64,000 nucleotides of DNA. Source: Eledone cirrhosa. Its lineage: Eukaryota. The stretch spans positions 131,626,001 through 131,690,000 of the forward strand of contig OZ024743.1 in the NCBI GenBank assembly GCA_964016885.1. The letters run 5' to 3'. The translations under genes and the position numbers were made by a program. The notes below the pieces were generated by a model. It did no database searches. It was not told where the DNA came from and saw nothing but the letters and a program-made list of their open reading frames with translations. Positions 1 through 64,000 of this stretch are shown here, piece after piece (position 1 is the first letter of the stretch; every line of letters starts with the position of its first letter).

Positions 1-569
1 CCAAACACCAAGCACCAAACACCAAGCACCAAGCACCAAGCACCAAGCACCAAGCACCAAACACCAATCACCAAGCCCCAAGCACCAAACACCAAGCACC
101 CAGCACCATACACCAAACACCAAGCACCAAGCACCCAGAACAAAGCACCAAGCACCAAACACCAAACACCAAACACCAAACACCAAGCACCAAGCACCAA
201 AGACCAAGCACCAAGCTCCAAGCACCAAACACCAAGCACCAACCACCAAGCACCAAACACCAAGCACCAGGCACCAAGCACCAAGCACCAAGCACCAAAC
301 ACCAATCACCAAGCACCAAACAGCAAACACCAAGCACCAAACACCAAACACCAAGCACCAAGCAACAAACACCAAACACCAAGCACCAAACACCAAGCAC
401 CAAGCCCCAAGCACCAAACACCAAGCACCAAGCACCAAACACCAAGCACCAAGCACCAAGCACCATGCACCAAACACCAAGCACCAAGCACCAAACAGCA
501 AACACCAAACAGCAAACACCAAACAGCAAACACCAAACAGCAAACACCAAACACCAAACACCAAACAGC

Positions 570-646
570 AAACGACAAAAAGCAAACGCCAAACTCCAAA
601 CGCCAAACAGCAAATGCCAAACCCCAAACGCCAAACAGCAAACGCC
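570..646. repeat. CpG-bearing variant cassette (AAACGCC-AAAAAGC-AAACGCC-AAAC(T/C)CC-AAACGCC-AAACAGC-AAATGCC-AAACCCC-AAACGCC), first of more than 20 copies
   Basis: It recurs near 3020, 3220, 4230, 12675, 12880, 15640, 15845, 16855, 22265, 22470, 23480, 33580, 34620, 44750, 44950, 48035, 48240, 49280, 49465, 58030, 58230, 61090 and 61270, with a degenerate copy near 63130. Confidence 0.88.
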
Positions 647-1311
647 AAGCACCAAACACCAAACACCAAGCGCCAAGCACCAAACACCAAACACCAAGCA
701 CCAAGCACCAAACACCAAACACCAAGCACCAAGTACCAAACACCAAACACCAAGCACCAAACACCAAACACCAAGCACCAAGCGCCAAACACCAAGCACC
801 AAGCACCAAGCACCAAACACCAAACACCAAGCACCAATCACCAAACACCAAACACCAAGCGCCAAACACCAAACACCAAACACCTAGCACCAATCACCAA
901 TCACCAAACACCAAGCACCAAACACCAAGCACCAAGCACCAAGCACCAAGCACCAAGCACCAAACACCAATCACCAAGCCCCAAGCACCAAACACCAAGC
1001 ACCCAGCACCAAACACCAAACACCAAGCACCAAGCACCCAGAACAAAGCACCAAGCACCAAACACCAAGCACCAAGCACCAAGCACCAAGCACCAAACAC
1101 CAATCACCAAGCCCCAAGCACCAAACACCAAGCACCAAGCACCAAACACCAAACACCAAGCACCCAGAACCAAGCACCAAGCACCAAACACCAAACACCA
1201 AGCACCAAGCACCAAACACCAAACACCAAGCACCAAGCACCAAGCACCAAGCACCAAACACCATACACCAAGCACCAAGGACCAAACACCAAAAACCAAT
1301 CACCAAGCACC

Positions 1312-4300
1312 AAAGAGCAAACACCAAGCCCCAAGCACCAAACACCAAACACCAAACACCAAATAGCAAACACTAAACACCAAACACCAAACAGCAAACA
1401 CAAAACACTAAATAGCGAACACCAAACAGCAAACACCAAACACCAAACAGCAAACACCAAACACCAACCAGGAAACACCAACCAGGAAACACCAAACACC
1501 AAGCACCAAGCCCCAAGCACCAAACACCAAGCACCAAGCACCAAACACCAAGCACCATGCACCAAGCACCATGCACCAAACACCAAGCACCAAGCACCAA
1601 ACAGCAAACACCAAACAGCAAACACCAAACACCAAACACCAACCAGCAAACACCAAACACCAAACACCAAACAGCAAACACCAAACACCAAACACCAAGC
1701 ACCAAGCACCCAGAACCAAGCACCAAGCACCAAACACCAAACACCAACCACCAAGCACCAGGCCCAAACACCAAGCACCAATCACCAAGCACCAAGCACC
1801 AAGCAACAAACACAAAGCACCAATCACCAAGCACCGAGCACCAAGCACCAAGCACCAAGCACCAAACACCAAGCACCAAACACTAAACACCAAGCACCAA
1901 GCACCAATCACCAAACACCAAGCACCAAGCACCAAACACCAAACAGCAAGCACCAAGCACCAAACACCAAACACCAAGTACCAAGCCCAAAGCACCAAAC
2001 ACCAAGCACCTAGCAGCAAGCACCAAACACCAAACACCAAGCACCAAGCACCAAGAACCAAGCACCAAGCACCAAGCACCAAGCACCAAACACCAATCAC
2101 CAAGCCCCAAGCACCAAACACCAAGCACCAAGCACCAAACACCAAACACCAAGCACCAAGCACCCAGAACCAAGCACCAAGCACCAAACACCAAACACCA
2201 ACCACCAAGCACCAAACACCAAACACCAAGCACCAAGCACCAAGCACCAAGCACCAAACACCAAACACCAAACACCAAACACCAAGGACCAATCACCAAA
2301 CACCAAGCACCAAGCACCAAACACCAAACACCAAACACCTAGCACCAAGCACCAAGCACCAAACACCAAGCACCAAACACCAAGCACCAAGCACCAAGCA
2401 CCAAGCACCAAGCACCAAACACCAATCACCAAGCCCCAAGCACCAAACACCAAGCACCCAGCACCATACACCAAACACCAAGCACCAAGCACCCAGAACA
2501 AAGCACCAAGCACCAAACACCAAACACCAAACACCAAACACCAAGCACCAAGCACCAAAGACCAAGCACCAAGCTCCAAGCACCAAACACCAAGCACCAA
2601 ACACCAAACACCAAGCACCAAGCACCAAACACCAAGCACCAAGCGCCAAACACCAAACTCCAAGCACCAAGCACCAAACACCAAGCACCAACCACCAAGC
2701 AACAAACACCAAGCACCAGGCACCAAGCACCAAGCACCAAGCACCAAACACCAAGCACCAAGCACCAAACAGCAAACACCAAGCACCAAACACCAAACAC
2801 CAAGCACCAAGCAACAAACACCAAACACCAAGCACCAAACACCAATCACCAAGCCCCAAGCACCAAACACCAAGCACCAAGCACCAAACACCAAGCACCA
2901 AGCACCAAGCACCATGCACCAAACACCAAGCACCAAGCACCAAACAGCAAACACCAAACAGCAAACACCAAACAGCAAACACCAAACAGCAAACACCAAA
3001 CACCAAACACCAAACAGCAAACGCCAAAAAGCAAACGCCAAACTCCAAACGCCAAACAGCAAATGCCAAACCCCAAACGCCAAACAGCAAACGCCAAGCA
3101 CCAAACACCAAACACCAAGCGCCAAGCACCAAACACCAAACACCAAGCACCAAGCACCAAACACCAAACACCAAGCACCAAGTACCAAACACCAAACACC
3201 AAGCACCAAACACCAAACAGCAAACGCAAAAAAGCAAACGCCAAACCCCATACGCCAAACAGCAAATGCCAAACCCCAAATGCCAAACAGCAAACGCCAA
3301 GCACCAAACACCAAGCACCAAGCACCAAGCACCAAGCACCAAACACCAAACACCAAGCACCAATCACCAAACACCAAACACCAAGCGCCAAACACCAAAC
3401 ACCAAACACCTAGCACCAATCACCAATCACCAAACAGCAAGCACCAAACGCCAAGCACCAAGCACCAAGCACCAAGCACCAAACACCAATCACCAAGCCC
3501 CAAGCACCAAACACCAAGCACCCAGCACCAAACACCAAACACCAAGCACCAAGCACCCAGAACAAAGCACCAAGCACCAAACACCAAGCACCAAGCACCA
3601 AGCACCAAGCACCAAACACCAATCACCAAGCCCCAAACACCAAACACCAAGCACCAAGCACCCAGAACCAAGCACCAAGCACCAAACACCAAACACCAAG
3701 CACCAAGCACCAAACACCAAACACCAAGCACCAAGCACCAAGCACCAAGCACCAAACACCATACACCAAGCACCAAGGACCAAACACCAAAAACCAATCA
3801 CCAAGCACCAAAGAGCAAACACCAAGCCCCAAGCACCAAACACCAAACACCAAACACCAAATAGCAAACACTAAACACCAAACACCAAACAGCAAACACA
3901 AAACACCAAATAGCAAACACCAAACAGCAAACACCAAACACCAAACAGCAAACACCAAACACCAACCAGGAAACACCAACCAGGAAACACCAAACACCAA
4001 GCACCAAGCCCCAAGCACCAAACACCAAGCACCAAGCACCAAACACCAAGCACCATGCACCAAGCACCATGCACCAAACACCAAGCACCAAGCACCAAAC
4101 AGCAAACACCAAACAGTAAACACCAAACACCAAACACCAACCAGCAAACACCAAACACCAAACACCAAACAGCAAACACCAAACAGCAAACACCAAACAG
4201 CAAACACCAAACACCAAACACCAAACAGCAAACGCCAAAAAGCAAACGCCAAACTCCAAACGCCAAACAGCAAACGCCAAGGACCAAACACCAAACACCA

Positions 4301-7300
4301 AGCGCCAAGCACCAAACACCAAACACCAAGCACCAAGTACCACACATCAAACACCGAGCACCAAACACCAAACACCAGGCCCAAACACCAAGCACCAATC
4401 ACCAAGCACCAAGCACCAAGCAACAAACATAAAGCACCAATCACCAAGCACCGAGCACCAAGCACCAAGCACCAAGCACCAAACACCAAGCACCAAACAC
4501 TAAACACCAAGCACCAAGCACCAATCACCAAACACCAAGCACCAAGCACCAAACACCAAACAGCAAGCACCAAGCACCAAACACCAAACACCAAGTACCA
4601 AGCCCAAAGCACCAAACACCAAGCACCTAGCAGCAAGCACCAAACACCAAACACCAAGCACCAAGCACCAAGCACCAAGCACCAAGCACCAAGCACCAAG
4701 CACCAAACACCAATCACCAAGCCCCAAGCACCAAACACCAAGCACCAAGCACCAAACACCAAACACCAAGCACCAAGCACCCAGAACCAAGCACCAAGCA
4801 CCAAACACCAAACACCAACCACCAAGCACCAAACACCAAACACCAAGCACCAAGCACCTAGCACCAAGCACCAAACACCAAACACCAAACACCAAACACC
4901 AAGGACCAATCACCAAACACCAAGCACCAAGCACCAAACACCAAACACCAAACACCTAGCACCAAGCACCAAGCACCAAACACCAAGCACCAAACACCAA
5001 GCACCAAGCACCAAGCACCAAGCACCAAGGACCAAACACCAATCACCAAGCCCCAAGCACCAAACACCAAGCACCAAGACCCAAACACCAAACACCAAGC
5101 ACCATGCACCCAGAACCAAGCACCAAGCACCAAACACCAAACACCAAGCACCAAGCACCAAACACCAAACACCAAGCACCAAGCACCAAACACTATACAC
5201 CAAGCACCAAGCACCAAACACCAAAAACCAATCACCAAGCACCAAAGAGCAAACACCAAGCCCCAAGCACCAAACACCAAACACCAAACACCAAAAAGCA
5301 AACACTAAACACAAAACACCAAACAGCAAACACCAAACACCAAATAGCAAACACCAAACACCAACCAGGAAACAGCAAACACCAAACAGCAAACGCCAAA
5401 CAGCAAACACAAACACCAAACACCAAACACCAAGCACCAAGCACCAAGCACAAAACACCAAGCACCAAGCGCCAAGCACCAAACACCAAACACCAAACAC
5501 CAAACAGCAAACACCAATCACCAAACACCAGACACCAAACACCAAACAGCAAACACCAAACACCAAACAGCAAACACCAAACACCAAACACCAAACAGCA
5601 AACACGAAACAGCAAACAGCAAACAGCAAACACCAAACAGCAAACACCAAACAGCAAACAGCAAACACCAAACTCCAAACACAAAGCACCAAGCACCAAA
5701 CACCAAGCACCAAGCAACAAGCACCAATCACCAAGCACCAAGCACTAAACACCAAACACCTAGCACCAAGCACCAAGCACCAAACACCAAGCACCAAGCA
5801 CCAAGCACCAAACACCAAGCACCAAAGACCAAGCCCCAAATACCAAGCACCAAGCACCAAACACTAATCACCAGGGACCAAGCACCAAACACCAAGAACC
5901 AAGCACCAAGCACTAAACACCAAACACCAAGCACCAAACACCAAACACCAAGCACCAAGTACCAAACTCCAAACACCAAACACCAAGCACCAAGCACCAA
6001 ATCCCAAGCACCAAACACCAAGCACCAATCACCAAACACCAAACACCAAGCGCCAAGCACCAAACACCAAGCACCAAGCACGAAACACCAAGCACCAAGC
6101 ACCGAGCACCAAACACCAAGTACCAAGCACCAATCACCAAACACCAAGCACCAAGCACCAAACACCAAACAGCAAGCACCAAGCACCAAGCACCAAACAT
6201 AAAACAACAAGTACCAAAGCACCAAACACCAAACACCAAACACCAAACACCAAGCACAAAGCACCAAACACCAAACACCAAGCACCAAGCACCAGACACC
6301 AAGCACCAAGCACCAAGCACCAAGCACCAAAAACAAAGCACCAAGCTCCAAGGACCAAACACCAAGCACCAAACACCAAACACAAAGCACCAAGCACCAA
6401 ACACCAAACACCAAGCACCAAGCACCAAACACCAAACACCAAGCACCAATCACCAAACACCAAGCACCAAGCGCCAAACACCAAACACCAAACACCTAGC
6501 ACCAAGCACCAAGCACCGAACACCAAGCACCAAACACCAAGCACCAAGCACCAAACACCAAGCACCAAGACCCAAACACCAAACACCAAGCACCATGCAC
6601 CCAGAACCAAGCACCAAGCACCAAACACCAAACACCAAGCACCAAGCACCAAACACCAAACACCAAGCACCAAGCCCCAAGCACCAAGCACCAAACACCA
6701 TACACCAAGCACCAAGCACCAAACACCAAAAACCAATCACCAAGCACCAAAGAGCAAACACCAAGCCCCAAGCACCAAACACCAAACACCAAACACCAAA
6801 AAGCAAACACTAAACACAAAACACCAAACAGCAAACACCAAACACCAAATAGCAAACACCAAACACCAACCAGGAAACACCAAACAGCAAACACCAAACA
6901 GCAAACGCCAAACAGCAAACACAAACACCAAACACCAAGCACCAAGCACCAAGCACCAAGCACAAAACACCAAGCACCAAGCGCCAAGCACCAAACACCA
7001 AACACCAAACACCAAACAGCAAACACCAATCACCAAACACCAGACACCAAACACCAAACAGCAAACACCAAACACCAAACAGCAAACACCAAACACCAAA
7101 CACCAAACAGCAAACACGAAACAGCAAACACCAAACAGCAAACACCAAACAGCAAACACCAAACAGCAAACAGCAAACACCAAACTCCAAACACCAAGCA
7201 CCAAGCACCAAACACCAAGCACCAAGCAACAAGCACCAATCACCAAGCACCAAGCACTAAACACCAAACACCTAGCACCAAGCACCAAGCACCAAACACC

Positions 7301-10300
7301 AAGCACCAAGCACCAAACACTAAGCACCAAAGACCAAGCCCCAAATACCAAGCACCAAGCACCAAACCCTAATCACCAGGGACCAAGCACCAAACACCAA
7401 GAACCAAGCACCAAACACTAAACACCAAACACCAAGCACCAAGCACCAAACACCAATCACCAAGCACCAAGTACCAAACTCCAAACACCAAACACCAAGC
7501 ACCAAGCACCAAATCCCAAGCACCAAACACCAAGCACCAATCACCAAACACCAAACACCAAGCGCCAAGCACCAAACACCAAGCACCAAGCACGAAACAC
7601 CAAGCACCAAGCACTGAGCACCAAACACCAAGTACCAAGCACCAATCACCAAACACCAAGCACCAAGCACCAAACACCAAACAGCAAGCACCAAGCACCA
7701 AGAACCAAACATAAAACAACAAGTACCAAGCACCAAACACCAAACACCAAACACCAAACACCAAGCACAAAGCACCAAACACCAAACACCAAGCACCAAG
7801 CACCAGACACCAAGCACCAAGCACCAAGCACCAAGCACCAAAAACCAAGCACCAAGCTCCAAGGACCAAACACCAAGCACAAAACACCAAACACAAAGCA
7901 CCAAGCACCAAACACCAAACACCAAGCACCAAGCACCAAACACCAAACACCAAGCACCAATCACCAAACACCAAGCACCAAGCGCCAAACACCAAACACC
8001 AAACACCTAGCACCAAGCACCAAGCACCGAACACCAAGCACCAAACACCAAGCACCAAGCACCAAGCACCAAGCACCAAGCACCAAACACCAATCACCAA
8101 GCCCCAAGCACCAAACACCAAGCACCAAGACCCAAACACCAGAAACCAAGCACCATGCACCCAGAACCAAGCACCAAGCACCAAACACCAAACACCAAGC
8201 ACCAAGCACCAAACACCAAACACCAAGCACCAAGCACCAAGCACCAAGCACCAAACACCATACACCAAGCACCAAGCACCAAACACCAAAAACCAATCAC
8301 CAAGCACCAAAGAGCAAACACCAAGCCCCAAGCACCAAACACCAAACACCAAACACCAAACAACAAACACTAAACAACAAACACCAAACAGCAAACACCA
8401 AACACCAAATAGCAAACACCAAACACCAACCAGGAAACACCAAACAGCAGACACCAAACAGCAGTCGCCAAACAGCAAACACAAACACCAAACACCAAAC
8501 AGCAAGCACCAAGCACCAAGCACAAAACACCAAGCACCAGGCGCCAAGTACCAAACACCAAACACCAAACACCAAACAGCAAACACCAATCACCAAACAC
8601 CAGACACCAAACACCAAACAGCAAACACCAAACACCAAACAGCAAACACTAAACACCAAACACCAAACAGCAAACACCAAACAGCAAACACCAAACACCA
8701 AACACCAAACACCAAGCACCAAGCACCAAACACCAAGCACCAAGCAACAAACACCAATCACCAAGCACCAAGCACTAAAAACCAAACACCCAGCACCAAG
8801 CACCAAGCACCAAAGACCAAGCACCAAGCACCAAGCACCAAACACCAAGCACCAAAGACCAAGCCCCAAATACCAAGCACCTAGCACCAAACACCAATCA
8901 CCAGGCACCAAGCACCAAACACCAAGAACCAAGCACCAAGCACTAAACACCAAATACCAAGCACCAAGCACCAAACTCCAAACACCAAGCACCAAGTACC
9001 AAACTCCAAACACCAAACACCAAGCACCAAGCACCAAATCCCAAGCACCAAACACCAAGCACCAATCACCAAACACCAAACACCAAGCACCAAGCACCAA
9101 ACACCAAAAACCAAGCACCAAGCACCAAGCACCAAACACCAAACGCCAAACACCGAACACCAAGTACCAAGCGCAAAACACCAAGCACCAAGCGCCAAAG
9201 ACCAAACACCAGGCACCGAGCACGAAACACCAAGCACCAAGCACCAAACACGAAGAACCAAGCACCAAACACCAGACAGCAAGCACCAAGCACCAAACAC
9301 CATGCACCCAGAACCAAGCACCAAGCACCAAACACCAAACACCAAGCACCAAGCACCAAACACCAAACACCAAGCACCAAGCACCAAGCACCAAGCACCA
9401 AACACCATCCACCAAGCACCAAGCACCAAACACCAAAAACCAATCACCAAGCACCAAAGAGCAAACACCAAGCCCCAAGCACCAAACACCAAACACCAAA
9501 CACCAAACAACAAACACTAAACACCAAACAACAAACAGCAAACACCAAACACCAAATAGCAAACACCAAACACCAACCAGGAAACACCAAACAGCAAACA
9601 CCAAACAGCAAACGCCAAACAGCAAACACAAACACCAAACACCAAACACCAAGCACCAAGCACCAAGCACAAAACACCAAGCACCAAGCGCCAAGCACCA
9701 AACACCAAACACCAAACACCAAACAGCAAACACCAATCACCAAATACCAGACACCAAACACCAAACAGCAAACACCAAACACCAAACAGCAAACACCAAA
9801 CACCAAACACCAAACAGCAAACACGAAACAGCAAACACCAAACAGCAGACACCACACAGCAAACACCAAACAGCAAACACCAAACACCAAACACCAAACA
9901 CCAAGCACCAACCACCAAAGACCAAGCACCAAGCAACAAACACCAATCCCCAAGCACCGAGCACTAAAAACCAAACATCTAGCACCAAGCACCAAGCACC
10001 AAACACCAAGCACCAAGCACCAAGCACCAAACACCAAGCACCAAAGACCAAGCCCCAAATACCAAGCACCAAGCACCAAACACCAATCACCAGGCACCAA
10101 GCACCAAACACCAAGAACCAAGCACCAAGCACTAAACACCAAATACCAAGCACCAAGCACCAAACACCAAACACCAAGCACCAAGTACCAAACTCCAAAC
10201 ACCAAACACCAAGCACCAAGCACCAAATCCCAAGCACCAAACACCAAGCACCAATCACCAAACACCAAACACCAAGCACCAAGCACCAAACACCAAAAAC

Positions 10301-10938
10301 CAAGCACCAAGCACCAAGCACCAAACACCTAACGCCAAACACCGAAAACCAAGTACCAAGCACCAAACACCAAGCACCAAGCGTCAAAGACCAAACACCT
10401 AGCACCAAGCACGAAACACCAAGCACCAAGCACCGAGCACCAAACATCAAGTACCAGGCACCAATCACCAAACACCAAGAACCAAGCACCAAACACCAGA
10501 CAGCAAGCACCAAGCACCAAACACCAAACTCCAAGCACCAAGCACCAAACACCAAGCACCAAGCGCCAAAGACCAAACACCAGGCACCAAGCACGAAACA
10601 CCAAGCACCAAGCACCAAACACCAAGAACCAAGCACCAAACACCAGACAGCAAGCACCAAGCACCAAACACCAAACACCAAGCACCAAGCACCAAACACC
10701 AAGCACCAAGTGCCAAACACCAAACACCAAGCACCAAGCACCAAACACCAAGCACCAACCACCAAGCACCAAACACCAAGCACCAAGCACCAAACACCAA
10801 GCACCAATCACCAAACAGCAAGCACCAAGCACCAAACACCAAACACCAAGCACCAAGCACCAAACACCAAGCACCAAGCACCAAACACCAAACACCAAGC
10901 ACCAAGCACCAAACACCAAAAACCAATCACCAAGCACC
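1312..10938. repeat. Super-cycle 1 (9,627 bp): blocks of 2498, 1434, 1505, 1560, 1147 and 1483 bp
   Basis: The block starting at 1312 recurs at 10939. Identical translations at 1373..1879 and 11000..11506 give an offset of 9627. Confidence 0.85.
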
Positions 10939-13900
10939 AAAGAGCAAACACCAAGCCCCAAGCACCAAACACCAAACACCAAACACCAAATAGCAAACAC
11001 TAAACACCAAACACCAAACAGCAAACACAAAACACTAAATAGCGAACACCAAACAGCAAACACCAAACACCAAACAGCAAACACCAAACACCAACCAGGA
11101 AACACCAACCAGGAAACACCAAACACCAAGCACCAAGCCCCAAGCACCAAACACCAAGCACCAAGCACCAAACACCAAGCACCATGCACCAAGCACCATG
11201 CACCAAACACCAAGCACCAAGCACCAAACAGCAAACACCAAACAGCAAACACCAAACACCAAACACCAACCAGCAAACACCAAACACCAAACACCAAACA
11301 GCAAACACCAAACACCAAACACCAAGCACCAAGCACCCAGAACCAAGCACCAAGCACCAAACACCAAACACCAACCACCAAGCACCAGGCCCAAACACCA
11401 AGCACCAATCACCAAGCACCAAGCACCAAGCAACAAACACAAAGCACCAATCACCAAGCACCGAGCACCAAGCACCAAGCACCAAGCACCAAACACCAAG
11501 CACCAAACACTAAACACCAAGCACCAAGCACCAATCACCAAACACCAAGCACCAAGCACCAAACACCAAACAGCAAGCACCAAGCACCAAACACCAAACA
11601 CCAAGTACCAAGCCCAAAGCACCAAACACCAAGCACCTAGCAGCAAGCACCAAACACCAAACACCAAGCACCAAGCACCAAGCACCAAGCACCAAGCACC
11701 AAGCACCAAACACCAATCACCAAGCCCCAAGCACCAAACACCAAGCACCAAGCACCAAACACCAAACACCAAGCACCAAGCACCCAGAACCAAGCACCAA
11801 GCACCAAACACCAAACACCAACCACCAAGCACCAAACACCAAACACCAAGCACCAAGCACCAAGCACCAAGCACCAAACACCAAACACCAAACACCAAAC
11901 ACCAAGGACCAATCACCAAACACCAAGCACCAAGCACCAAACACCAAACACCAAACACCTAGCACCAAGCACCAAGCACCAAACACCAAGCACCAAACAC
12001 CAAGCACCAAGCACCAAGCACCAAGCACCAAGCACCAAACACCAATCACCAAGCCCCAAGCACCAAACAACAAGCACCCAGCACCATACACCAAACACCA
12101 AGCACCAAGCACCCAGAACAAAGCACCAAGTACCAAACACCAAACACCAAACACCAAACACCAAGCACCAAGCACCAGACACCAAGCACCAAGCACCAAG
12201 CACCAAGCACCAAAGACCAAGCACCAAGCTCCAAGCACCAAACACCAAGCACCAAACACCAAACACCAAGCATCAAGCACCAAACACCAAGCACCAAGCG
12301 CCAAACACCAAACTCCAAGCACCAAGCACCAAACACCAAGCACCAACCACCAAGCACCAAACACCAAGCACCAGGCACCAAGCACCAAGCACCAAGCACC
12401 AAACACCAAGCACCAAGCACCAAACAGCAAACACCAAGCACCAAACACCAAACACCAAGCACGAAGCAACAAACACCAAACACCAAGCACCAAACACCAA
12501 TCACCAAGCCCCAAGCACCAAACACCAAGCACCAAGCACCAAACACCAAGCACCAAGCACCAAGCACCATGCACCAAACACCAAGCACCAAGCACCAAAC
12601 AGCAAACACCAAACAGCAAACACCAAACAGCAAACACCAAACAGCAAACACCAAACACCAAACACCAAACAGCAAACGCCAAAAAGCAAACGCCAAACTC
12701 CAAACGCCAAACAGCAAATGCCAAACCCCAAACGCCAAACAGCAAACGCCAAGCACCAAGCACCAAACACCAAGCGCCAAGCACCAAACACCAAACACCA
12801 AGCACCAAGCACCAAACACCAAACACCAAGCACCAAGTACCAAACACCAAACACCAAGCACCAAACACCAAACAGCAAACGCAAAAAAGCAAACGCCAAA
12901 CCCCATACGCCAAACAGCAAATGCCAAACCCCAAACACCAAACACCAAGCGCCAAACACCAAACACCAAACACCTAGCACCAATCACCAATCACCAAACA
13001 GCAAGCACCAAACGCCAAGCACCAAGCACCAAGCACCAAGCACCAAGCACCAAATACCAATCACCAAGCCCCAAGCACCAAACACCAAGCACCCAGCACC
13101 AAACACCAAACACCAAGCAACAAGCACCCAGAACAAAGCACCAAGCACCAAACACCAAGCACCAAGCACCAAGCACCAAACACCAATCACCAAGCCCCAA
13201 ACACCAGACACCAAGCACCAAGCACCCAGAACCAAGCACCAAGCACCAAACACCAAACACCAAGCACCAAGCACCAAACACCAAACACCAAGCACCAAGC
13301 ACCAAGCACCAAGCACCAAACACCATACACCAAGCACCAAGGACCAAACACCAAAAACCAATCACCAAGCACCAAAGAGCAAACACCAAGCCCCAAGCAC
13401 CAAACACCAAACACCAAACACCAAATAGCAAACACTAAACACCAAACACCAAACAGCAAACACAAAACACCAAATAGCAAACACCAAACAGCAAACACCA
13501 AACACCAAACAGCAAACACCAAACACCAACCAGGAAACACCAACCAGGAAACACCAAACACCAAGCACCAAGCCCCAAGCACCAAACACCAAGCACCAAG
13601 AACCAAACACCAAGCACCATGCACCAAGCACCATGCACCAAACACCAAGCACCAAGCACCAAACAGCAAACACCAAACAGTAAACACCAAACACCAAACA
13701 CCAACCAGCAAACACCAAACACCAAACACCAAACAGCAAACACCAAACAGCAAACACCAAACAGCAAACACCAAACACCAATCACCAAACAGCAAGCACC
13801 AAGCACCAAACACCAAACACCAAGCACCAAGCACCAAACACCAAGCACCAAGCACCAAACACCAAACACCAAGCACCAAGCGCCAAACACCAAAAACCAA

Positions 13901-48830: not shown

Positions 48831-48861
48831 ACCAAACACCAAAAACCAATCACCAAGCACC

Positions 48862-51800: not shown

Positions 51801-54800
51801 CAATCACCAAGCCCCAAGCACCAAACACCAAGCACCAAGACCCAAACACCAAACACCAAGCACCATGCACCCAGAACCAAGCACCGAGCACCAAACACCA
51901 AACACCAAGCACCAAGCACCAAACACCAAACACCAAGCACCAAGCACCAAACACTATACACCAAGCACCAAGCACCAAACACCAAAAACCAATCACCAAG
52001 CACCAAAGAGCAAACACCAAGCCCCAAGCACCAAACACCAAACACCAAACACCAAAAAGCAAACACTAAACACAAAACACCAAACAGCAAACACCAAACA
52101 CCAAATAGCAAACACCAAACACCAACCAGGAAACAGCAAACACCAAACAGCAAACGCCAAACAGCAAACACAAACACCAAACACCAAACACCAAGCACCA
52201 AGCACCAAGCACAAAACACCAAGCACCAAGCGCCAAGCACCAAACACCAAACACCAAACACCAAACAGCAAACACCAATCACCAAACACCAGACACCAAA
52301 CACCAAACAGCAAACACCAAACACCAAACAGCAAACACCAAACACCAAACACCAAACAGCAAACACGAAAAAGCAAACACCAAACAGCAAACACCAATCA
52401 GCAAACACCAAACAGCAAACAGCAAACACCAAACTCCAAACACAAAGCACCAAGCACCAAACACCAAGCACCAAGCAACAAGCACCAATCACCAAGCACC
52501 AAGCACTAAACACCAAACACCTAGCACCAAGCACCAAGCACCAAACACCAAGCACCAAGCACCAAGCACCAAACACCAAGCACCAAAGACCAAGCCCCAA
52601 ATACCAAGCACCAAGCACCAAACACTAATCACCAGGGACCAAGCACCAAACACCAAGAACCAAGCACCAAGCACTAAACACCAAACACCAAGCACCAAAC
52701 ACCAAACACCAAGCACCAAGTACCAAACTCCAAACACCAAACACCAAGCACCAAGCACCAAATCCCAAGCACCAAACACCAAGCACCAATCACCAAACAC
52801 CAAACACCAAGCGCCAAGCACCAAACACCAAGCACCAAGCACGAAACACCAAGCACCAAGCACCGAGCACCAAACACCAAGTACCAAGCACCAATCACCA
52901 AACACCAAGCACCAAGCACCAAACACCAAACAGCAAGCACCAAGCCCCAAGCACCAAACATAAAACAACAAGTACCAAGCACCAAACACCAAACACCAAA
53001 CACCCAACACCAAGCACAAAGCACCAAACACCAAACACCAAGCACCAAGCACCAGACACCAAGCACCAAGCACCAAGCACCAAGCACCAAAAACCAAGCA
53101 CCAAGCTCCAAGGACCAAACACCAAGCACCAAACACCAAACACAAAGCACCAAGCACCAAACACCAAACACCAAGCACCAAGCACCAAACACCAAACACC
53201 AAGCACCAATCACCAAACACCAAGCACCAAGCGCCAAACACCAAACACCAAACACCTAGCACCAGGCACCAAGCACCGAACACCAAGCACCAAACACCAA
53301 GCACCAAGCACCAAACACCAAGCACCAAGACCCAAACACCAAACACCAAGCACCATGCACCCAGAACCAAGCACCAAGCACCAAACACCAAACACCAAGC
53401 ACCAAGCACCAAACACCAAGCACCAAGCACCAAGCACCAAGCACCAAGCACCAAACACCATACACCAAGCACCAAGCACCAAACACCAAAAACCAATCAC
53501 CAAGCACCAAAGAGCAAACACCAAGCCCCAAGCACCAAACACCAAACACCAAACACCAAAAAGCAAACACTAAACACAAAACACCAAACAGCAAACACCA
53601 AACACCAAATAGCAAACACCAAACACCAACCAGGAAACACCAAACAGCAAACACCAAACAGCAAACGCCAAACAGCAAACACAAACACCAAACACCAAGC
53701 ACCAAGCACCAAGCACAAAACACCAAGCACCAAGCGCCAAGCACCAAACACCAAACAGCAAACACCAATCACCAAACACCAGACACCAAACACCAAACAG
53801 CAAACACCAAACACCAAACAGCAAACACCAAACACCAAACACCAAACAGCAAACACCAAACAGCAAACACCAAACAGCAAACACCAAACAGCAAACACCA
53901 AACAGCAAACAGCAAACACCAAACTCCAAACACCAAGCACCAAGCACCAAACACCAAGCACCAAGCAACAAGCACCAATCACCAAGCACCAAGCACTAAA
54001 CACCAAACACCTAGCACCAAGCACCGAGCACCAAACACCAAGCACCAAGCACCAAGCACCAAACACCAAGCACCAAAGACCAAGCCCCAAATACCAAGCA
54101 CCAAGCACCAAACACTAATCACCAGGGACCAAGCACCAAACACCAAGAACCAAGCACCAAACACTAAACACCAAACACCAAGCACCAAGCACCAAACACC
54201 AAACACCAAGCACCAAGTACCAAACTCCAAACACCAAACACCAAGCACCAAGCACCAAATCCCAAGCACCAAACACCAAGCACCAATCACCAAACACCAA
54301 ACACCAAGCGCCAAGCACCAAACACCAAGCACCAAGCACGAAACACCAAGCACCAAGCACTGAGCACCAAACACCAAGTACCAAGCACCAATCACCAAAC
54401 ACCAAGCACCAAGCCCCAAACACCAAACAGCAAGCACCAAGCACCAAGCACCAAACATAAAACAACAAGTACCAAGCACCAAACACCAAACACCAAACAC
54501 CAAACACCAAGCACAAAGCACCAAACACCAAACACCAAGCACCAAGCACCAGACACCAAGCACCAAGCACCAAGCACCAAGCACCAAAAACCAAGCACCA
54601 AGCTCCAAGGACCAAACACCAAGCACAAAACACCAAACACAAAGCACCAAGCACCAAACACCAAACACCAAGCACCAAGCACCAAACACCAAACACCAAG
54701 CACCAATCACCAAACACCAAGCACCAAGCGCCAAACACCAAACACCAAACACCTAGCACCAAGCACCAAGCACCGAACACGAAGCACCAAACACCAAGCA

Positions 54801-57800
54801 CCAAGCACCAAGCACCAAGCACCAAGCACCAAACACCAATCACCAAGCCCCAAGCACCAAACACCAAGCACCAAGACCCAAACACCAGAAACCAAGCACC
54901 ATGCACCCAGAACCAAGCACCAAGCACCAAACACCAAACACCAAGCACCAAGCACCAAACACCAAACACCAAGCACCAAGCACCAAGCACCAAGCACCAA
55001 ACACCATACACCAAGCACCAAGCACCAAACACCAAAAACCAATCACCAAGCACCAAAGAGCAAACACCAAGCCCCAAGCACCAAACACCAAACACCAAAC
55101 ACCAAACAACAAACACTAAACAACAAACACCAAACAGCAAACACCAAACACCAACCAGGAAACACCAAACAGCAGACACCAAACAACAATCGCCAAACAG
55201 CAAACACAAACACCAAACACCAAACAGCAAGCACCAAGCACCAAGCACAAAACACCAAGCACCAGGCGCCAAGTACCAAACACCAAACACCAAACACCAA
55301 ACAGCAAACACCAATCACCAAACACCAGACACCAAACACCAAACAGCAAACAACAAACACCAAACAGCAAACACCAAACACCAAACACCAAACAGCAAAC
55401 ACCAAACAGCAAACACCAAACACCAAACACCAAACACCAAGCACCAAGCACCAAACACCAAGCACCAAGCAACAAACACCAATCACCAAGCACCAAGCAC
55501 TAAAAACCAAACACCCAGCACCAAGCACCAAGCACCAAAGACCAAGCACCAAGCACCAAGCACCAAACACCAAGCACCAAAGACCAAGCCCCAAATACCA
55601 AGCACCAAGCACCAAACACCAATCACCAGGCACCAAGCACCAAACACCAAGAACCAAGCACCAAGCACTAAACACCAAATACCAAGCACCAAGCACCAAA
55701 CTCCAAACACCAAGCACCAAGTACCAAACTCCAAACACCAAACACCAAGCACCAAGCACCAAATCCCAAGCACCAAACACCAAGCACCAATCACCAAACA
55801 CCAAACACCAAGCACCAAGCACCAAACACCAAAAACCAAGCACCAAGCACCAAGCACCAAACACCAAACGCCAAACACAGAACACCAAGTACCAAGCGCA
55901 AAACACCAAGCACCAAGCGCCAAAGACCAAACACCAGGCACCGAGCACGAAACACCAAGCACCAAGCACCAAACACCAAGAACCAAGCACCAAACACCAG
56001 ACAGCAAGCACCAAGCACCAAACACCATGCACCCAGAACCAAGCACCAAGCACCAAACACCAAACACCAAGCACCAAGCACCAAACACCAAACACCAAGC
56101 ACCAAGCACCAAGCACCAAGCACCAAACACCATACACCAAGCACCAAGCACGAAACACCAAAAACCAATCACCAAGCACCAAAGAGCAAACACCAAGCCC
56201 CAAGCACCAAACACCAAACACCAAACACCAAACAACAAACACTAAACACCAAACAACAAACAGCAAACACCAAACACCAAATAGCAAACACCAAACACCA
56301 ACCAGGAAACACCAAACAGCAAACACCAAACAGCAAACGCCAAACAGCAAACACCAAGCACCAAGCACCAAGCACAAAACACCAAGCACCAAGCGCCAAG
56401 CACCAAACACCAAACACCAAACACCAAACAGCAAACACCAATCACCAAATACCAGACACCAAACACCAAACAGCAAACACCAAACACCAAACAGCAAACA
56501 CCAAACACCAAACACCAAACAGCAAACACGAAACAGCAAACACCAAACAGCAGACACCAAACGGCAAACACCAAACAGCAAACACCAAACACCAAACACC
56601 AAACACCAAGCACCAACCACCAAACACCAAGCACCAAGCAACAAACACCAATCACCAAGCACCGAGCACTAAAAACCAAACATCTAGCACCAAGCACCAA
56701 GCACCAAACACCAAGCACCAAGCACCAAGCACCAAACACCAAGCACCAAAGACCAAGCCCCAAATACCAAGCACCAAGCACCAAACACCAATCACCAGGC
56801 ACCAAGCACCAAACACCAAGAACCAAGCACCAAGCACTAAACACCAAATACCAAGCACCAAGCACCAAACACCAAACACCAAGCACCAAGTACCAAACTC
56901 CAAACACCAAACACCAAGCACCAAGCACCAAATCCCAAGCACCAAACACCAAGCACCAATCACCAAACACCAAACACCAAGCACCAAGCACCAAACACCA
57001 AAAACCAAGCACCAAGCACCAAGCACCAAACACCTAACGCCAAACACCGAAAACCAAGTACCAAGCACCAAACACCAAGCACCAAGCGTCAAAGACCAAA
57101 CACCTAGCACCAAGCACGAAACACCAAGCACCAAGCACCGAGCACCAAACACCAAGTACCAGGCACCAATCACCAAACACCAAGAACCAAGCACCAAACA
57201 CCAGACAGCAAGCACCAAGCACCAAACACCAAACTCCATGCACCAAGCACCAAACACCAAGCACCAAGCGCCAAAGACCAAACACCAGGCACCAAGCACG
57301 AAACACCAAGCACCAAGCACCAAACACCAAAAACCAAGCACCAAACACCAGACAGCAAGCACCAAGCACCAAACAACAAACACCAAGCACCAAGCACCAA
57401 ACACCAAGCACCAAGCGCCAAACACCAAACACCAAGCACCAAGCACCAAACACCAAGCACCAACCACCAAGCACCAAACACCAAGCACCAAGCACCAAAC
57501 ACCAAGCACCAATCACCAAACAGCAAGCACCAAGCACCAAACACCAAACACCAAGCACCAAGCACCAAACACCAAGCATCAAGCACCAAACACCAAGCAC
57601 CAAGCACCAAACACCAAAAACCAATCACCAAGCACCAAAGAGCAAACACCAAGCCCCAAGCACCAAACAGCAAACACCAAACACCAAATAGCAAACACTA
57701 AACACCAAACACCAAACAGCAAACACAAAACACCAAATAGCAAATACCAAACAGCAAACACCAAACACCAAACAGCAAACACCAAACACCAACCAGGAAA

Positions 57801-60666
57801 CACCAAAGACCAAGCACCAAACACCAAGCACCAAGCCCCAACCACCAAACACCTAGCACCAAGCACCAAACACCAAGCACCAAGCACCAAGCACCATGCA
57901 CCAAACACCAAGCACCAAGCACCAAACAGCAAACACCAAACAGCAAACACCAAACACCAAACACCAACCAGCAAACACCAAACAACAAACACCAAACAGC
58001 AAACACCAAACACCAAACACCTAACACCAAACGCCAAAAAGCAAACGCCAAACCCCAAACGCCAAACAGCAAATGCCAAACCCCAAACGCCAAACAGCAA
58101 ACGCCAAGCGCCAAACACCAAAGACCAAGCGCCAAGCAACAAACACCAAACACCAAGCACCAAGCACCAAACACCAAACACCAAGCACCAAGTACCAAAC
58201 ACCAAACACCAAGCACCAAACACCAAACAGCAAACGCCAAAAAGCAAACGCCAAACCCCAAACGCCAAACAGCAAACGCCAAGGACCAAACACCAAACAC
58301 CAAGCGCCAAGCACCAAATACCAAACACCAAGCACCAAGCACCAAACACCAAACACCAAGGACCAATCACCAAACACCAAGCACCAAGCGCCAAACACCA
58401 AACACCATACACCTAGCACCAAGCACCAAGCACCAAACACCAAAAACCAAGCCCCAAGCACCAAACACCAAGCACCAAGCGCCAAACACCAAACACCAAA
58501 CACCTAGCACCAAGCACCAAGCACCGAACACCAAGCACCAAACACCAAGCACCAAGCACCAAGCACCAAGCACCAAGCACCAAACACCAAACACCAAGCA
58601 CCAAGCACCAAACACCAAGCACCAAGCGCCAAACACCAAACACCAAACACCTAGCACCAAGCACCAAGCACCGAACACCAAGCACCAAACACCAAGCACC
58701 AAGCACCAAGCACCAAGCACCAAGCACCAAACACCAATCACCAAGCCCCAAGCACCAAACACCAAGCACCAAGCACCAAACACCAAACACCAAGCACCAA
58801 GCACCCAGAACCAAGCACCAAGCACCAAACACCAAACACCAAGCACCAAGCACCAAACACCAAACACCAAGCACCAAGCACCAAGCACCAAGCACCAAAC
58901 ACCATACACCAAGCACCAAGCACCAAACACCAAAAACCAATCACCAAGCACCAAAGAGCAAACACCAAGCCCCAAGCACCAAACACCAAACACCAAACAG
59001 CAAACACTAAACACCAAACACCAAACAGCAAACACCAAACAGCAAATAGCAAACACCAAACACCAACCAGGAAACACCAAACAGCAAACACCAAACAGCA
59101 AACGCCAAACAGCAAACACAAACACCAAACACCAAGCACCAAGCACCAAGCACAAAACACCAAGCACCAAGCGCAAAGCACCAAACACCAAACACCAAAC
59201 ACCAAACACCAAACACCAATCACCAGACACCAGACACCAAACACCAAACAGCAAACACCAAACACCAAACAGCAAACACCAAACACCAAACACCATGCAC
59301 CCAGAACCAAGCACCAAGCACCAAACACCAAACACCAAGCACCAAGCACCAAACACCAAACACCAAGCACCAAGCACCAAGCACCAAGCACCAAACACCA
59401 TACACCAAGCACCAAGCACCAAACACCAAAAACCAATCACCAAGCACCAAAGAGCAAACACCAAGCCCCAAGCACCAAACACCAAACACCAAACACCAAA
59501 CAACAAACACTAAACACCAAACACCAAACAGCAAACACCAAACACCAAGCACCAAGCACCAAGCACCAAACACCAAGCACCAAGCGCCAAGCACCAAACA
59601 CCAAACACCAAACACCAAACAGCAAACACCAATCACCAAATACCAGACACCAAACACCAAACAGCAAACACCAAACACCAAACACCAAACAGCAAACACG
59701 AAACAGCAAACACCAAACAGCAGAGACCAAACAGCAAACACCAAACAGCAAACACCAAACACCAAACACCAAACACCAAACACCAAGCACCAAGCACCAA
59801 ACACCAAGCACCAAGCAACAAACACCAATCACCAAGCACCGAGCACTAAAAACCAAACATCTAGCACCAAGCACCAAGCACCAAACACCAAGCACCAAGC
59901 ACCAAGCACCAAACACCAAGCACCAAAGACCAAGCCCCAAATACCAAGCACCAAGCACCAAACACCAATCACCAGGCACCAAGCACCAAACACCAAGAAC
60001 CAAGCACCAAGCACTAAACACCAAATACCAAGCACCAAGCACCAAACACCAAACACCAAGCACCAAGTACCAAACTCCAAACACCAAACACCAAGCACCA
60101 AGCACCAAATTCCAAGCACCAAACACCAAGCACCAATCACCAAACACCAAACACCAAGCACCAAGCACCAAACACCAAAAACCAAGCACCAAGCACCAAG
60201 CACCAAACACCTAACGCCAAACACCGAAAACCAAGTACCAAGCACCAAACACCAAGCACCAAGCGTCAAAGACCAAACACCTAGCACCAAGCACGAAACA
60301 CCAAGCACCAAGCACCGAGCACCAAACACCAAGTACCAAGCACCAATCACCAAACACCAAGAAACAAGCACCAAACACCAGACAGCAAGCACCAAGCACC
60401 AAACACCAAACTCCAAGCACCAAGCACCAAACACCAAGCACCAAGCGCCAAACACCAAACACCAAGCACCAAGCACCAAACACCAAGCACCAACCACCAA
60501 GCACCAAACACCAAGCACCAAGCACCAAACACCAAGCACCAATCACCAAACAGCAAACACCAAGCACCAAACACCAAACACCAAGCACCAAGCACCAAAC
60601 ACCAAGCACCAAGCACCAAACACCAAGCACCAAGCACCAAACACCAAAAACCAATCACCAAGCACC
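48862..60666. repeat. Right-hand super-cycle with the same block order but more private substitutions
   Basis: Blocks at 50451, 52005, 53509, 55055 and 56181 (1554, 1504, 1546, 1126 and 1456 bp) match the left-hand block types. The block at 48862 recurs at 60667, sharing the AAAAAGT variant near 49289 and 61095. Confidence 0.8.
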
Positions 60667-61979
60667 AAAGAGCAAACACCAAGCCCCAAGCACCAAACAC
60701 AAAACACCAAATACCAAATAGCAAACACTAAACACCAAACACCAAACAGCAAACACAAAACAACAAATAGCAAATACCAAACAGCGAACACCAAACACCA
60801 AACAGCAAACACCAAACACCAACCAGGAAACACCAAAGACCAAGCACCAAACACCAAGCACCAAGCCCCAGGCACCAAACACCAAGCACCAAGCACCAAA
60901 CACCAAGCACCAAGCACCAAGCACCATGCACCAAACACCAAGCACCAAGCACCAAACAGCAAACACCAAACAGCAAACACCAAACACCAAACACCAACCA
61001 GCAAACACCAAACACCAAACACCAAACAGCAAACACCAAACAGCAAACACCAAACAGCAAACACCAAACACCAAACACCAAACACCAAACGCCAAAAAGT
61101 AAACGCCAAACCCCAAACGCCAAACAGCAAATGCCAAACCCCAAGCGCCAAACAACAAAGACCAAGCGCCAAGCAACAAACACCAAACACCAAGCACCAA
61201 GCACCAAACACCAAACACCAAGCACCAAGTACCAAACACCAAACACCAAGCACCAAACACCAAACAACAAACGCCAAAAAGCAAACGCCAAACCCCAAAC
61301 GCCAAACAGCAAACGCCAAGGACCAAACACCAAACACCAAGCGCCAAGCACCAAATACCAAACACCAAGCACCAAGCACCAAACACCAAACACCAAGGAC
61401 CAATCACCTAACACCAAGCACCAAGCGCCAAACACCAAAAACCAAACACCTAGCACCAAGCACCAAGCACCAAACACCAAGCACCAAGCCCCAAGCACCA
61501 AACAGCAAGCACCCAGCACCATACACCAAACACCAAGCACCAAGCACCCAGAACAAAGCACCAAGCACCAAACACCAAACACCAAGCTCCAGGCACCAAA
61601 CACGAAACACCAAGCACCAAGCACCAAGCACCAAGCACCAAACACCAAACACCAAGCACCAAGCACCAAACACCAAGCACCAAGCGCCAAACACCAAACA
61701 CCAAACACCTAGCACCAAGCACCAAGCACCGAACACCAAGCACCAAACACCAAGCACCAAGCACCAAGCACTAAGCACCAAGCACCAAACACCAATCACC
61801 AAGCCCCAAGCACCAAACACCAAGCACCAAGCACCAAACACCAAACACCAAGCACCAAGCACCCAGAACCAAGCACCAAGCACCAAACACCAAACACCAA
61901 GCACCAAGCACCAAACACCAAACACCAAGCACCAAGCACCAAGCACCAAGCACTAAACACCATACACCAAGCACCAAGC

Positions 61980-64000
61980 ACCAATCACTAAACACTAAAC
62001 ACCAAGCACCAAGCACCAAACACAAACACCAAGCACCAAGCACCAAATCCCAAGCACCAAACACAAAACACCAAGCACCAAGCACCAAACACCAAACACC
62101 AAGCACCAACCACCAAACACCAAATACCAAGCACCAAGCACCAGGCACCAAGCACCAAACACCAAGCACCAAGCACCAAGCACCAAACACCAAGCACCAA
62201 ACACCAAGCACCAGACACCAAGCACCAAGCACCAAACACCAAACAGCAAACACCAAACACCAAACAGCAAACACCAAACAGCAAACACCAAACACCAAAC
62301 ACCAACCAGCAAACACCAAGCACCAAGCACTAAACAGCAAACACCAAGCACCAAGCACCAAGCACCAAACACCAAGCACCAAGCACCAAGCACCAAACAC
62401 CAAGCACCAAGCACCAACCACCAAGCAGCAAGCACCAAGCACCAAGCACCAAACACCAAGCACCAAGCACCAAACACCAAACACCAAGCACCAATCACCA
62501 AACACCAAACACCAAGCACCAAGCACCAAACACCAAGCACCAAGCACCAAAGAGAAAAAAACCAAGCACCAAGCATCAAACACCAAACACCAAACACCAC
62601 ACAGCAAACAGCAAACAGCAAACACCAAACAGCAAACACCAAATAGCAAACACCAAACAGCAAACACCAAACACCAAACAGCAAACACTAAACACCAAAC
62701 ACCAAGCACCAAGCACCAAGCACCAAACAACAAGCACCAAGCACCAAGCACCAAGCACCAAACACCAAACACCAATCGCCAAACACCAAACACCAAGCAT
62801 CAAGCACCAAACACCAAACACCAAGCACCAAGCACCAAGCACCAAGCACCAAACACCAAGCACCAAGCACCAATCACCAAACACCAAACACCAGGCACCA
62901 AACACCAAACAGCAAACACCAATCACCAAACACCAAACACCAAACAGCAAACACCAATCACCAAACAACAAACACCAAACACCAAACAGTAAACACCAAA
63001 CACCAAACAGCAAACACCAAACACCAAACAGCAAACACCAAACACCAAACACCAAACACCAAACACCAAACAAACAGCAAACAGCAAACACCAAACAGCA
63101 AACAGCAAACACCAAACACCAAACAACAAACGCCAAACAGCAAATGCCAGCCACCAGATGCCTAACAGCAAACGCCAAACACCAAACGCCAAACAGCAAA
63201 CACCAAACACCAAACAGCAAACACCAAACACCAAACACCAAATAGCAAACACCAAACAGCAAACACCAAACAACAAACACCAAACAGCAAACACCAAACA
63301 GCAAACAGCAAACACCAAACACCAAACACCAAGCACCAAGCACCAAACACCAAGCACCAATCAACAAGCACCAATCACCAAGCACCAAGCACTAAACACC
63401 AAACACCAAGCACCAAGCACCAAGCACCAAACACCAAGCACAAAGCACCAAGCACCAAACGCCAAGCAACAAGCACCAAACACCAAGCACCAAGCACCAA
63501 GCACCAAACACCAAGCACCAAAGACCAAGCACCAAATACCAAGCACCAAGCACCAAACACCAATCACCAAGCACCAAGCACCAAACACAAACACCAAGCA
63601 CCAAGTACCAAACTCCAAACACCAAACACCAAACACCAAGCATGAAGCACCAAGCACCAAATACCAAACACCAAACACCAAGCACCACATCAAACACCAA
63701 GCACCAAGCACCAATCGCCAAGCACCAAGCACCAAGCAACAAACACAACGCACCAAACACCAAGCACCAAGCACCAAGCACCAAACACCAAGCACCAAGC
63801 ACCCAACACCAAACACCAATCACCAAGCACCAAAGAGCAAACACCAAGCCCCAAGCACCAAACACCCAACACCAAACACCAAACATCAAACACCAATCAC
63901 GAATCACCAAACAGCAAACAGCAAACACCAAACACCAAACACCAAGCACCAAGCACCAAACACCAAACACCAAGCACTAAGCACCAAACACCAAATACCA
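61980..64000. repeat. Diverged portion of the satellite with a degraded HOR pattern
   Basis: It carries many variants not seen upstream: AAAGAGAAAAAAACC near 62549, a 4-bp unit near 63068, AGCCACC-AGATGCC-TAACAGC near 63149, AAGCATG near 63638, a 5-bp ACATC near 63687 and AATCACG near 63895. Confidence 0.75.

What the first reader, a model, noticed from the sequence alone, without database searches (positions are those of the whole stretch)
1..64000. A 'simple' 7-bp satellite with a nested, alpha-satellite-like higher-order architecture
Seen: the order of AAACACC versus AAGCACC units and of about 30 rarer variants is not random. It is copied faithfully at the scale of 1.1-2.5-kb blocks (41 AAAGAGC cores) and of 9.6-12.5-kb super-cycles (AAGCGTC/AAGCTTC landmarks at 10379, 20097, 32607, 43774, 47252, 57084 and 60261). 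Known: HORs are well described for long monomers such as primate 171-bp alpha satellite and Arabidopsis CEN178, while short satellites such as the Drosophila virilis heptamers are usually treated as homogeneous. Inference: the unit of amplification here is kilobases long, and this may be an undescribed centromeric or pericentromeric satellite family. I do not recognise the monomer from any named satellite.
Basis: partly seen in the sequence, partly recalled or inferred. Interest (0 to 1): 0.75.

Follow-up and report, generated by a model that had tools for sequence, protein, structure and literature searches.

The report
Heptamer satellite with megabase repeat cycles
The ordered pattern is real: this window is part of a 14.6-million-base block of a 7-base repeat on one giant chromosome of a likely octopus, built by copying at nested scales from 28 bases up to about eleven cycles of roughly a million bases each; it is likely non-centromeric heterochromatin of a kind already known from the human Y chromosome, not a new kind of centromere.

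Summary
Observation confirmed. All landmark coordinates are exact. 76% of 15-unit words recur (shuffles 0%), with peaks at 1.5, 3.0, 3.5, 9.6-9.7 and 11.17 kb. The window lies in a 14.60-Mb AA(A/G)CACC array on contig C4 of a likely octopod genome.

The main addition is a megabase level. One inversion junction recurs 11 times and a second 10 times, bracketing a 105-256-kb flipped cassette that holds the window. Subfamily order between junctions is collinear in the four cycles sampled densely (rho 0.94-0.99).

Interpretation only partly supported. Short satellites with kilobase nested repeats and multi-megabase duplications are known (human HSat3/DYZ1), and the HOR is irregular, not alpha-like. 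A centromere role is less likely than not (about 25%): the array is almost confined to one site, while a different 25-bp satellite occurs on C1, C2 and C4 (62 Mb away).

No paper found describing the monomer. The scan had already noted the 11 junction copies elsewhere in this array (e1-10312967, e1-10312942). Verdict: undescribed satellite family, known kind of architecture.

The parts
1..64000 (+). Uninterrupted AA(A/G)CACC heptamer satellite, 9,147 units; part of a 14.60-Mb array (G000:C4 about 128.823-143.422 Mb). The window lies in the 256-kb plus-oriented cassette between junctions at C4:131.437 and 131.693 Mb.
1312..10938 (+). Super-cycle 1: block types 2,1,5,5,8,7 (9,627 bp); AAGCGTC landmark at 10379 in the type-7 block
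10939..20656 (+). Super-cycle 2: types 2,1(short),2,1,8,7 (9,718 bp); internal 3.0-kb duplication, no type-5 block; AAGCTTC landmark at 20097
20657..33159 (+). Super-cycle 3: types 2,1,5,5,5,5,8,7 (12,503 bp)
24834..30913 (+). Run of four about 1.5-kb type-5 blocks (source of the 1.5-kb peak)
23530..44807 (+). Youngest duplication: 23530-33640 repeated 11,167 bp downstream with 7 mismatches in 10,111 bp (0.07%); includes a 3,447-bp exact repeat
33160..44326 (+). Super-cycle 4: types 2(short),1,5,5,5,5,8,7 (11,167 bp)
44327..48861 (+). Chimeric, shortened cycle (types 8,7 with fused parts); source of the 3.3-3.5-kb peaks
48862..57636 (+). Super-cycle 5: types 3,5,5,5,8,7 (8,775 bp)
57637..64000 (+). 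Short cycle (types 4,6,7) and more divergent blocks leading towards the inversion junction 3.27 kb beyond the window end

Best explanation
This is a 14.6-Mb, almost single-site 7-bp satellite of a likely octopod, whose order of variants is copied at 28-bp, 0.5-3-kb, 3-12.5-kb and megabase scales; it is likely passive, non-centromeric heterochromatin that grew by repeated in-register unequal exchange. Shown: nested recurrence; 11 copies of one tail-to-tail and 10 of one head-to-head inversion junction; conserved subfamily order between them; copies about 0.2-0.5% apart. Inferred sequence of events: (1) a simple heptamer array gathered point variants; (2) local duplications fixed variant strings as 28-bp and kilobase units, giving at least ten sequence subfamilies; (3) one segment of about 100-250 kb was inverted; (4) a roughly 1-1.5-Mb stretch containing that inversion was duplicated about ten times in a short period, twice in inverted orientation; (5) each copy has since kept changing size by local kilobase duplications and deletions, the 11,167-bp one being the newest seen. 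The variants are passengers that record the copying; no function of their order is needed.
For: Nested recurrence far above shuffle and Markov controls. Register kept: 39 of 9,147 units are not 7 bp. Nearest block copies 0-0.6% apart for most of the 40 blocks. The 11 tail-to-tail junction copies share the same left and the same right arm (like-to-like 70-mer sharing mostly 30-85%, left-to-right 0-1%; the left arm at 141.21 Mb is an exception at 2-11%) and differ by 0.17-0.46% in all 55 pairs. The head-to-head junction is the same in 4 of 4 cycles read and occurs 10 times, each 105-256 kb from a tail-to-tail junction. Order collinear in 12 of 12 ordered pairs of four cycles (rho 0.94-0.99, permutation p<=0.006; 115 of 156 sample comparisons matched, all on the same strand); within the minus domain alone rho 0.75-0.99, p<0.02 in 10 of 12. 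Near single site: 51,429 genome-wide matches to a 28-bp word against 53,000 expected from this array alone; 78 of 78 matches to a rarer word are on C4. A 25-bp satellite occurs on C1, C2 and at C4:205.5+ Mb. Same architecture in the non-centromeric human Yq12, attributed to unequal exchange.
Against: The array is large, recently homogenised, free of insertions or gaps in all 104 stretches examined (705 kb, 4.8% of it) and lies at 34-38% of the contig, all of which also fit an active centromere. Only 4 of the 10 intervals between junctions were sampled densely; sparse samples elsewhere show departures (plus-strand patches at 137.0 and 139.75 Mb, extra junctions at 129.21, 130.02, 134.47 and 142.16 Mb) and spacings range from 0.09 to 1.85 Mb, so it is not a clean tandem. 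The divergence measure is biased low, since it is seeded on exact 56-mers. The 25-bp satellite is itself an untested candidate, with two sites on C1. No raw-read confirmation. No recombination mechanism was tested directly.
Confidence: 0.65

Rival explanations
1. The array is the chromosome-specific centromere (or its immediate pericentromere) of giant chromosome C4, and the megabase cycles are centromeric macro-repeats like those of human chromosome 12.
For: 14.6 Mb, no insertions in 705 kb sampled, copies about 0.2-0.5% apart, submetacentric position. Macro-repeats in an active human array. Conserved inversion sites in putative centromeric Tribolium satellites. Genomes with different satellite families on different chromosomes exist.
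Against: No array of comparable size on other contigs. A composite satellite site resembling the mid-C2 site (AT-rich 11/12-mer, heptamer patch, 25-bp satellite) lies at C4:205.0-205.8+ Mb, 62 Mb away. The HSat3 analogue is not centromeric.
Confidence: 0.25
2. Origin hypothesis, compatible with either role: the heptamer descends from interstitial telomeric repeats (TAACCC to TAACAGC/TAACACC to AAACAGC/AAACACC).
For: Degenerate TAACCC arrays in the middle of C1, C2 and C3 carry a 7-bp TAACAGC unit (269 of 3,199 units in the C2 sample), one base from AAACAGC, the third commonest satellite unit; the C2 array has its own 2.3-2.4-kb nested period. On C2 a heptamer patch lies within 20 kb of such an array. 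The same strand is C/A-rich in both.
Against: 19% of all cyclic 7-mers are as close to TAACCC as AAACACC is; 15 of 228 reachable 7-mers lie within one base of a top-three unit. TAACAGC is only 7 of 58,901 satellite units and TAACACC 1 of 3,199 ITS units, so no intermediate was seen. On C2 the two are separated by 200-N gaps and rDNA. No telomeric tract at either edge of the C4 array.
Confidence: 0.2
3. The larger repeats are assembly artefacts (haplotypes written in tandem, or mis-joined repeat contigs).
For: The 11,167-bp duplicate differs by only 0.07%. The small patches on C2:251.15 and C4:205.36 abut 200-N gaps. No raw reads were laid.
Against: Eleven junction copies each carry their own substitutions and indels and cassette lengths differ 2.4-fold; two haplotypes could at most double the number. 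No gap in the 104 stretches examined in the main array.
Confidence: 0.07

Closest known systems
Human HSat3/DYZ1 in Yq12 and HSat2/3 nested tandem repeats (10.1101/2022.12.01.518724 and 10.1101/2021.07.12.452052; passages read)
   Same: Short ancestral monomer (CATTC) diverged into kilobase units; period varies along the array; iterative tandem duplications up to 5 Mb; strand switches (over 200 in HSat3B5); tens of megabases of heterochromatin.
   Different: Unrelated sequence and phylum. Here the 7-bp register is almost intact, so units are whole numbers of monomers. One family only, no partner satellite in the main array. One flipped cassette was carried through about eleven megabase copies.
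Primate alpha-satellite HORs and chromosome 12 macro-repeats (passages, section 6 of 10.64898/2026.09.17.752431)
   Same: Ordered variant monomers copied as blocks; macro-repeats above the HOR level.
   Different: Monomer 7 bp, not about 171 bp; no fixed HOR period (heterogeneous type); not present on all chromosomes; CENP-A untested.
Tribolium macro-dyad symmetries (PMC13081366; passages read)
   Same: Conserved, repeated inversion sites inside satellite arrays.
   Different: Thousands of sites and arms up to 75 kb on all chromosomes there; here two junction types in 10-11 copies, with the two arms from different subfamilies (0-1% shared 70-mers), so not true palindromes.
Drosophila virilis 7-bp satellites (10.1101/693077; passages read)
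   Same: 7-bp monomer, megabase amounts, similar AAAC start.
   Different: Those arrays average about 98.5-99% or higher identity; here the two main units make up only 66% of the array and about 100 variants are ordered.

Membership tests
HSat2/3-type nested tandem repeat (architecture) | Derived from a short simple repeat that is still recognisable | tested here: met
   Period 7 across the whole window
HSat2/3-type nested tandem repeat (architecture) | Longer, kilobase-scale repeat units of inconsistent size that vary along the array | tested here: met
   0.5-3.2-kb blocks and 3-12.5-kb cycles in the window; other periods at other sites
HSat2/3 (sequence family) | CATTC-derived sequence | tested here: not met
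   Monomer is AA(A/G)CACC
Regimented alpha-satellite-type HOR | A fixed multi-monomer period repeated with little structural variation | tested here: not met
   Cycle lengths 3.0-12.5 kb, 0-4 type-5 blocks, chimeric blocks
Centromeric satellite | CENP-A/CENH3 occupancy or location at the primary constriction | not testable with these tools
   No ChIP, FISH or Hi-C available
Centromeric satellite | One major array on most or all chromosomes (usual, not required) | tested here: not met
   Counts fit the C4 array alone; small patches on C2 and C4:205.36-205.42 Mb
Tribolium-type macro-dyad symmetry | Conserved inversion sites repeated in the array | tested here: met
   11 and 10 copies of two junctions
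Tribolium-type macro-dyad symmetry | Inverted arms of roughly symmetric length forming palindrome-like arrays on all chromosomes | tested here: not met
   Plus arms 105-256 kb against minus arms 0.85-1.34 Mb in four cycles; arms from different subfamilies; one chromosome
Telomere-derived (interstitial telomeric) satellite | Contains the telomeric unit or clear intermediates | tested here: inconclusive
   TAACCC not among the 12 commonest 6-bp units; TAACAGC 7 of 58,901; resemblance near chance

The most novel reading that the evidence does not exclude
A telomere-derived heptamer has become the private centromere of one giant octopod chromosome and expands as a megabase-long ordered unit, about eleven copies, each with its own flipped cassette: a higher-order repeat with a unit of some 200,000 monomers.
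Probability: 0.08. Interest if true: 0.8.

Novelty: new member of a known kind. Interest (0 to 1): 0.45.

Why it matters
I found no description of cephalopod centromeric satellites in four searches (and 39 within the centromere atlas), so this is an apparently undescribed family. It is an unusually readable case of satellite growth: two unique inversion junctions and at least ten ordered subfamilies mark each megabase cycle. Duplication order, copy-number differences between individuals, and the unequal-exchange versus break-induced-replication question can therefore be tested with a few junction probes. It also gives a chromosome-specific FISH probe. If it proved centromeric, it would be a rare chromosome-private centromere on a giant chromosome.

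Tried and rejected
Sequencing-run search: 23 runs listed; the 3 holding over half the words are one sample of one organism, possibly the assembly's source, so not independent. The other 17 holders share 0.05-0.19 and count as no evidence, including the 6 RNA rows. No reads were laid on the array, so raw-read support remains open. First search for head-to-head junctions found only two unrelated sites, because the main junction has variant units; it was then found by walking. Global alignment of junction arms gave inflated values of 1.5-9% for four copies through misregistration, so I used diagonal-chain values. Fold-back palindrome rejected: arms share 0-1% of 70-mers. Rfam: no match in the window. 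No canonical G-quadruplex motif on the G-rich strand. My first idea that this array is C4's counterpart of the mid-chromosome telomeric tracts of C1-C3 was dropped once the composite site at C4:205 Mb was seen. Literature: motif searches gave 0 papers; searches gave 0; three look-ups by id were not held, so Solanum telomere-like long-monomer repeats are recalled only and not used as evidence. Dfam and Repbase could not be searched. The supplements of the centromere atlas preprint could not be seen and may list this species or satellite.

Full report
Observation. The window is one uninterrupted 7-bp tandem array. Segmentation gives 9,147 units of 104 kinds: AAACACC 33.8%, AAGCACC 32.3%, AAACAGC 6.0%, AATCACC 3.3%; 39 units are not 7 bp. 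The 41 AAAGAGC cores and all seven landmarks are at the stated places. Unit autocorrelation peaks at 11,167 bp (0.377; highest value in 20 shuffles over all lags 0.245). 76% of 15-unit words recur, against 0% in shuffles and at most 3.6% in Markov controls. The 40 complete blocks are 496-3,165 bp and, at one clustering threshold of my choice, fall into eight types. They form cycles of the form 2,1,5(n),8,7 with n from 0 to 4, plus chimeric and shortened cycles. Most blocks have a copy 0-0.6% away; the 11,167-bp duplicate has 7 mismatches in 10,111 bp. The order is real but irregular.

Organism and place. The window is G000:C4:131.626-131.690 Mb, on a 378.8-Mb contig of a 3.0-Gb genome. Four contigs are 379-443 Mb; four of the 16 contig starts read are plain TTAGGG arrays. 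The genome has molluscan hemocyanin genes. One exon matches PDB chain 1js8_A at 786 bits and 4yd9_C at 681; that these are an octopus and a squid protein is recalled. So the animal is likely an octopod.

Extent. 14 of 14 samples from 129.0 to 142.0 Mb are this satellite and 6 of 6 outside are not. The edges are at about 128.823 and 143.422 Mb, 14.60 Mb, with no gap at either edge. In 104 stretches (705 kb) no insertion or gap of 60 bp or more was found; the five flagged stretches are runs of variant heptamers. A 28-bp word occurs 51,429 times in the genome; this array alone predicts about 53,000. All 78 matches to a rarer word are on C4, 76 in the array and 2 at 205.37 Mb; these matches are clumped, so they are fewer than 78 independent sites. 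Small patches exist at C2:250.86-250.93 and 251.15 Mb and at C4:205.36-205.42 Mb. The C2:250.86 patch shares 74% of 63-mers with C4:134.0 Mb and joins a 25-bp satellite without a gap, at a junction found once.

The megabase level. 3.27 kb past the window the strand flips. A pattern search found 12 other tail-to-tail sites. Ten of them, with the window's own slightly deleted version, share one left and one right arm; nine copies face one way and two the other. The left arm at 141.21 Mb matches only near the junction. The remaining two sites (129.21 and 130.02 Mb) are a different junction. Copies differ by 0.17-0.46% in all 55 pairs by a measure biased low, with no clear neighbour effect. A head-to-head junction is identical in 4 of 4 cycles walked and occurs 10 times, 105-256 kb from a tail-to-tail junction each time; the copy at 142.89 Mb has no match. 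Between junctions the subfamilies follow the same order. For 52 samples in four cycles, 115 of 156 comparisons found a match, all on the same strand, with rho 0.94-0.99 in 12 of 12 ordered pairs (the pairs are not independent). Within the minus domain alone rho is 0.75-0.99, p<0.02 in 10 of 12. The other six intervals were sampled only sparsely and show departures; junction spacings run from 0.09 to 1.85 Mb. The window sits in the flipped cassette of one cycle.

How it most likely works. Shown: nested copying, in register, at four scales. Inferred: point variants were fixed into longer units by local duplication, one segment inverted, and a stretch of 1-1.5 Mb holding it was copied about ten times in a short period, each copy then changing size locally. 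Unequal exchange is the standard explanation for such patterns; break-induced replication is not excluded. The two arms at the junction are different subfamilies, so this is an inversion scar, not a fold-back.

Centromere or not. Size, purity and recent homogenisation fit a centromere. Against: the family is nearly confined to one site. A 25-bp satellite has 751 copies of one 70-mer; the first 100 listed lie on C1 (two sites) and C2, and it is also at C4:205.5-205.8 Mb, in a composite block like that of mid-C2. Earlier AI notes name other multi-chromosome candidates in this genome (e1-10311123, e1-10347674, e1-10313858); I did not test them. I put a centromeric role at about 25%.

Telomere origin. 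Degenerate TAACCC arrays lie mid-C1, C2 and C3 and carry TAACAGC units, one base from AAACAGC. The resemblance is close to chance and intermediates are missing: about 20%.

Comparison with what is known. HSat2/3 come from CATTC and have multi-kilobase 'nested tandem repeats' whose period varies along arrays; HSat3B5 has many strand switches; chromosome 12 has macro-repeats (passages of 10.1101/2021.07.12.452052). DYZ1 is a 3.6-kb nested repeat in a region with iterative tandem duplications up to 5 Mb (passages of 10.1101/2022.12.01.518724). Heterogeneous HORs are widespread (section 6 of 10.64898/2026.09.17.752431; its main text has no 'octopus' or 'cephalopod'; its supplements were not seen). 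Tribolium has conserved inversion sites (passages of PMC13081366). D. virilis heptamers are indeed homogeneous (passages of 10.1101/693077). So it works like HSat3/Yq12 but is not a member of that sequence family, and it fails the test for a regimented alpha-type HOR. No paper holds the motifs, and three cephalopod or mollusc satellite searches listed none on this repeat (listings only).

Earlier notes. After my own junction analysis, the search of earlier findings showed two notes from other windows of this array that report the same 11 copies and 14.6 Mb. They agree but are not independent evidence. The second junction and the collinear subfamily order are not mentioned in the lines shown.

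Verdict. Real, apparently undescribed satellite family; architecture of a known kind, with an unusually clear megabase cycle. Interest 0.45.

Noticed in passing
G000:C1:217.85-218.06 Mb, C2:251.17-251.21 Mb, C3:150.93-151.01 Mb (L148-L151, L063, L097, L098, L157-L159): Degenerate interstitial TTAGGG arrays near the middle of three giant contigs, sharing a 7-bp TAACAGC variant; the C2 array has a 2.3-2.4-kb nested period. Possible fusion scars or one mobile telomere-like family.
   Followed up: partly
G000:C1:251.5-252.0 and 279.2 Mb, C2:244.3-251.1 Mb, C4:205.55-205.8 Mb (L065-L069, L172, L173): A 25-28-bp satellite (core GGGAGATAATTT) shared among at least three giant contigs at high identity; rival centromere candidate.
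   Followed up: partly
L096:2650-7145 (G000:C2:251.152-251.162 Mb): 5.8S and 28S rDNA between a heptamer patch and the telomeric array, next to 200-N gaps; placement may be scaffolding.
   Followed up: partly
L162:6313-9085 and L196:1-2900 (G000:C4:128.816-128.823 Mb): Cluster of tRNA genes right at the left edge of the array (four by Rfam in L162; more tRNA-like sequence up to about 100 bp from the first heptamer).
   Followed up: no
L094 and L095 (G000:C4:129.21 and 130.02 Mb); L203 (134.467 Mb); C4:142.158 Mb: Further inversion junctions; the first two are inverted copies of each other.
   Followed up: partly
L168-L170, L200 (G000:C4:205.363-205.420 Mb): A 57-kb heptamer patch that runs through three subfamilies including the window's, starts at a 200-N gap and ends without a gap in an AT-rich 11/12-bp repeat also seen at C2:250.70 Mb.
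   Followed up: partly
L019:3342-4949 (G000:C4:146.0 Mb): Seven-unit polyubiquitin gene 2.6 Mb beyond the array's right edge.
   Followed up: no
L146:883-3000 (G000:C1:217.75 Mb): Perfect (TCGAA)n array of at least 2.1 kb, 100 kb from the C1 telomeric array.
   Followed up: no
window, runs of 13-27 units with A at position 3 (e.g. after each AAAGAGC core): AAACAGC-rich stretches lacking AAGCACC recur in all seven subfamily samples tested and at the array's left edge; possibly relics of an older layer.
   Followed up: no
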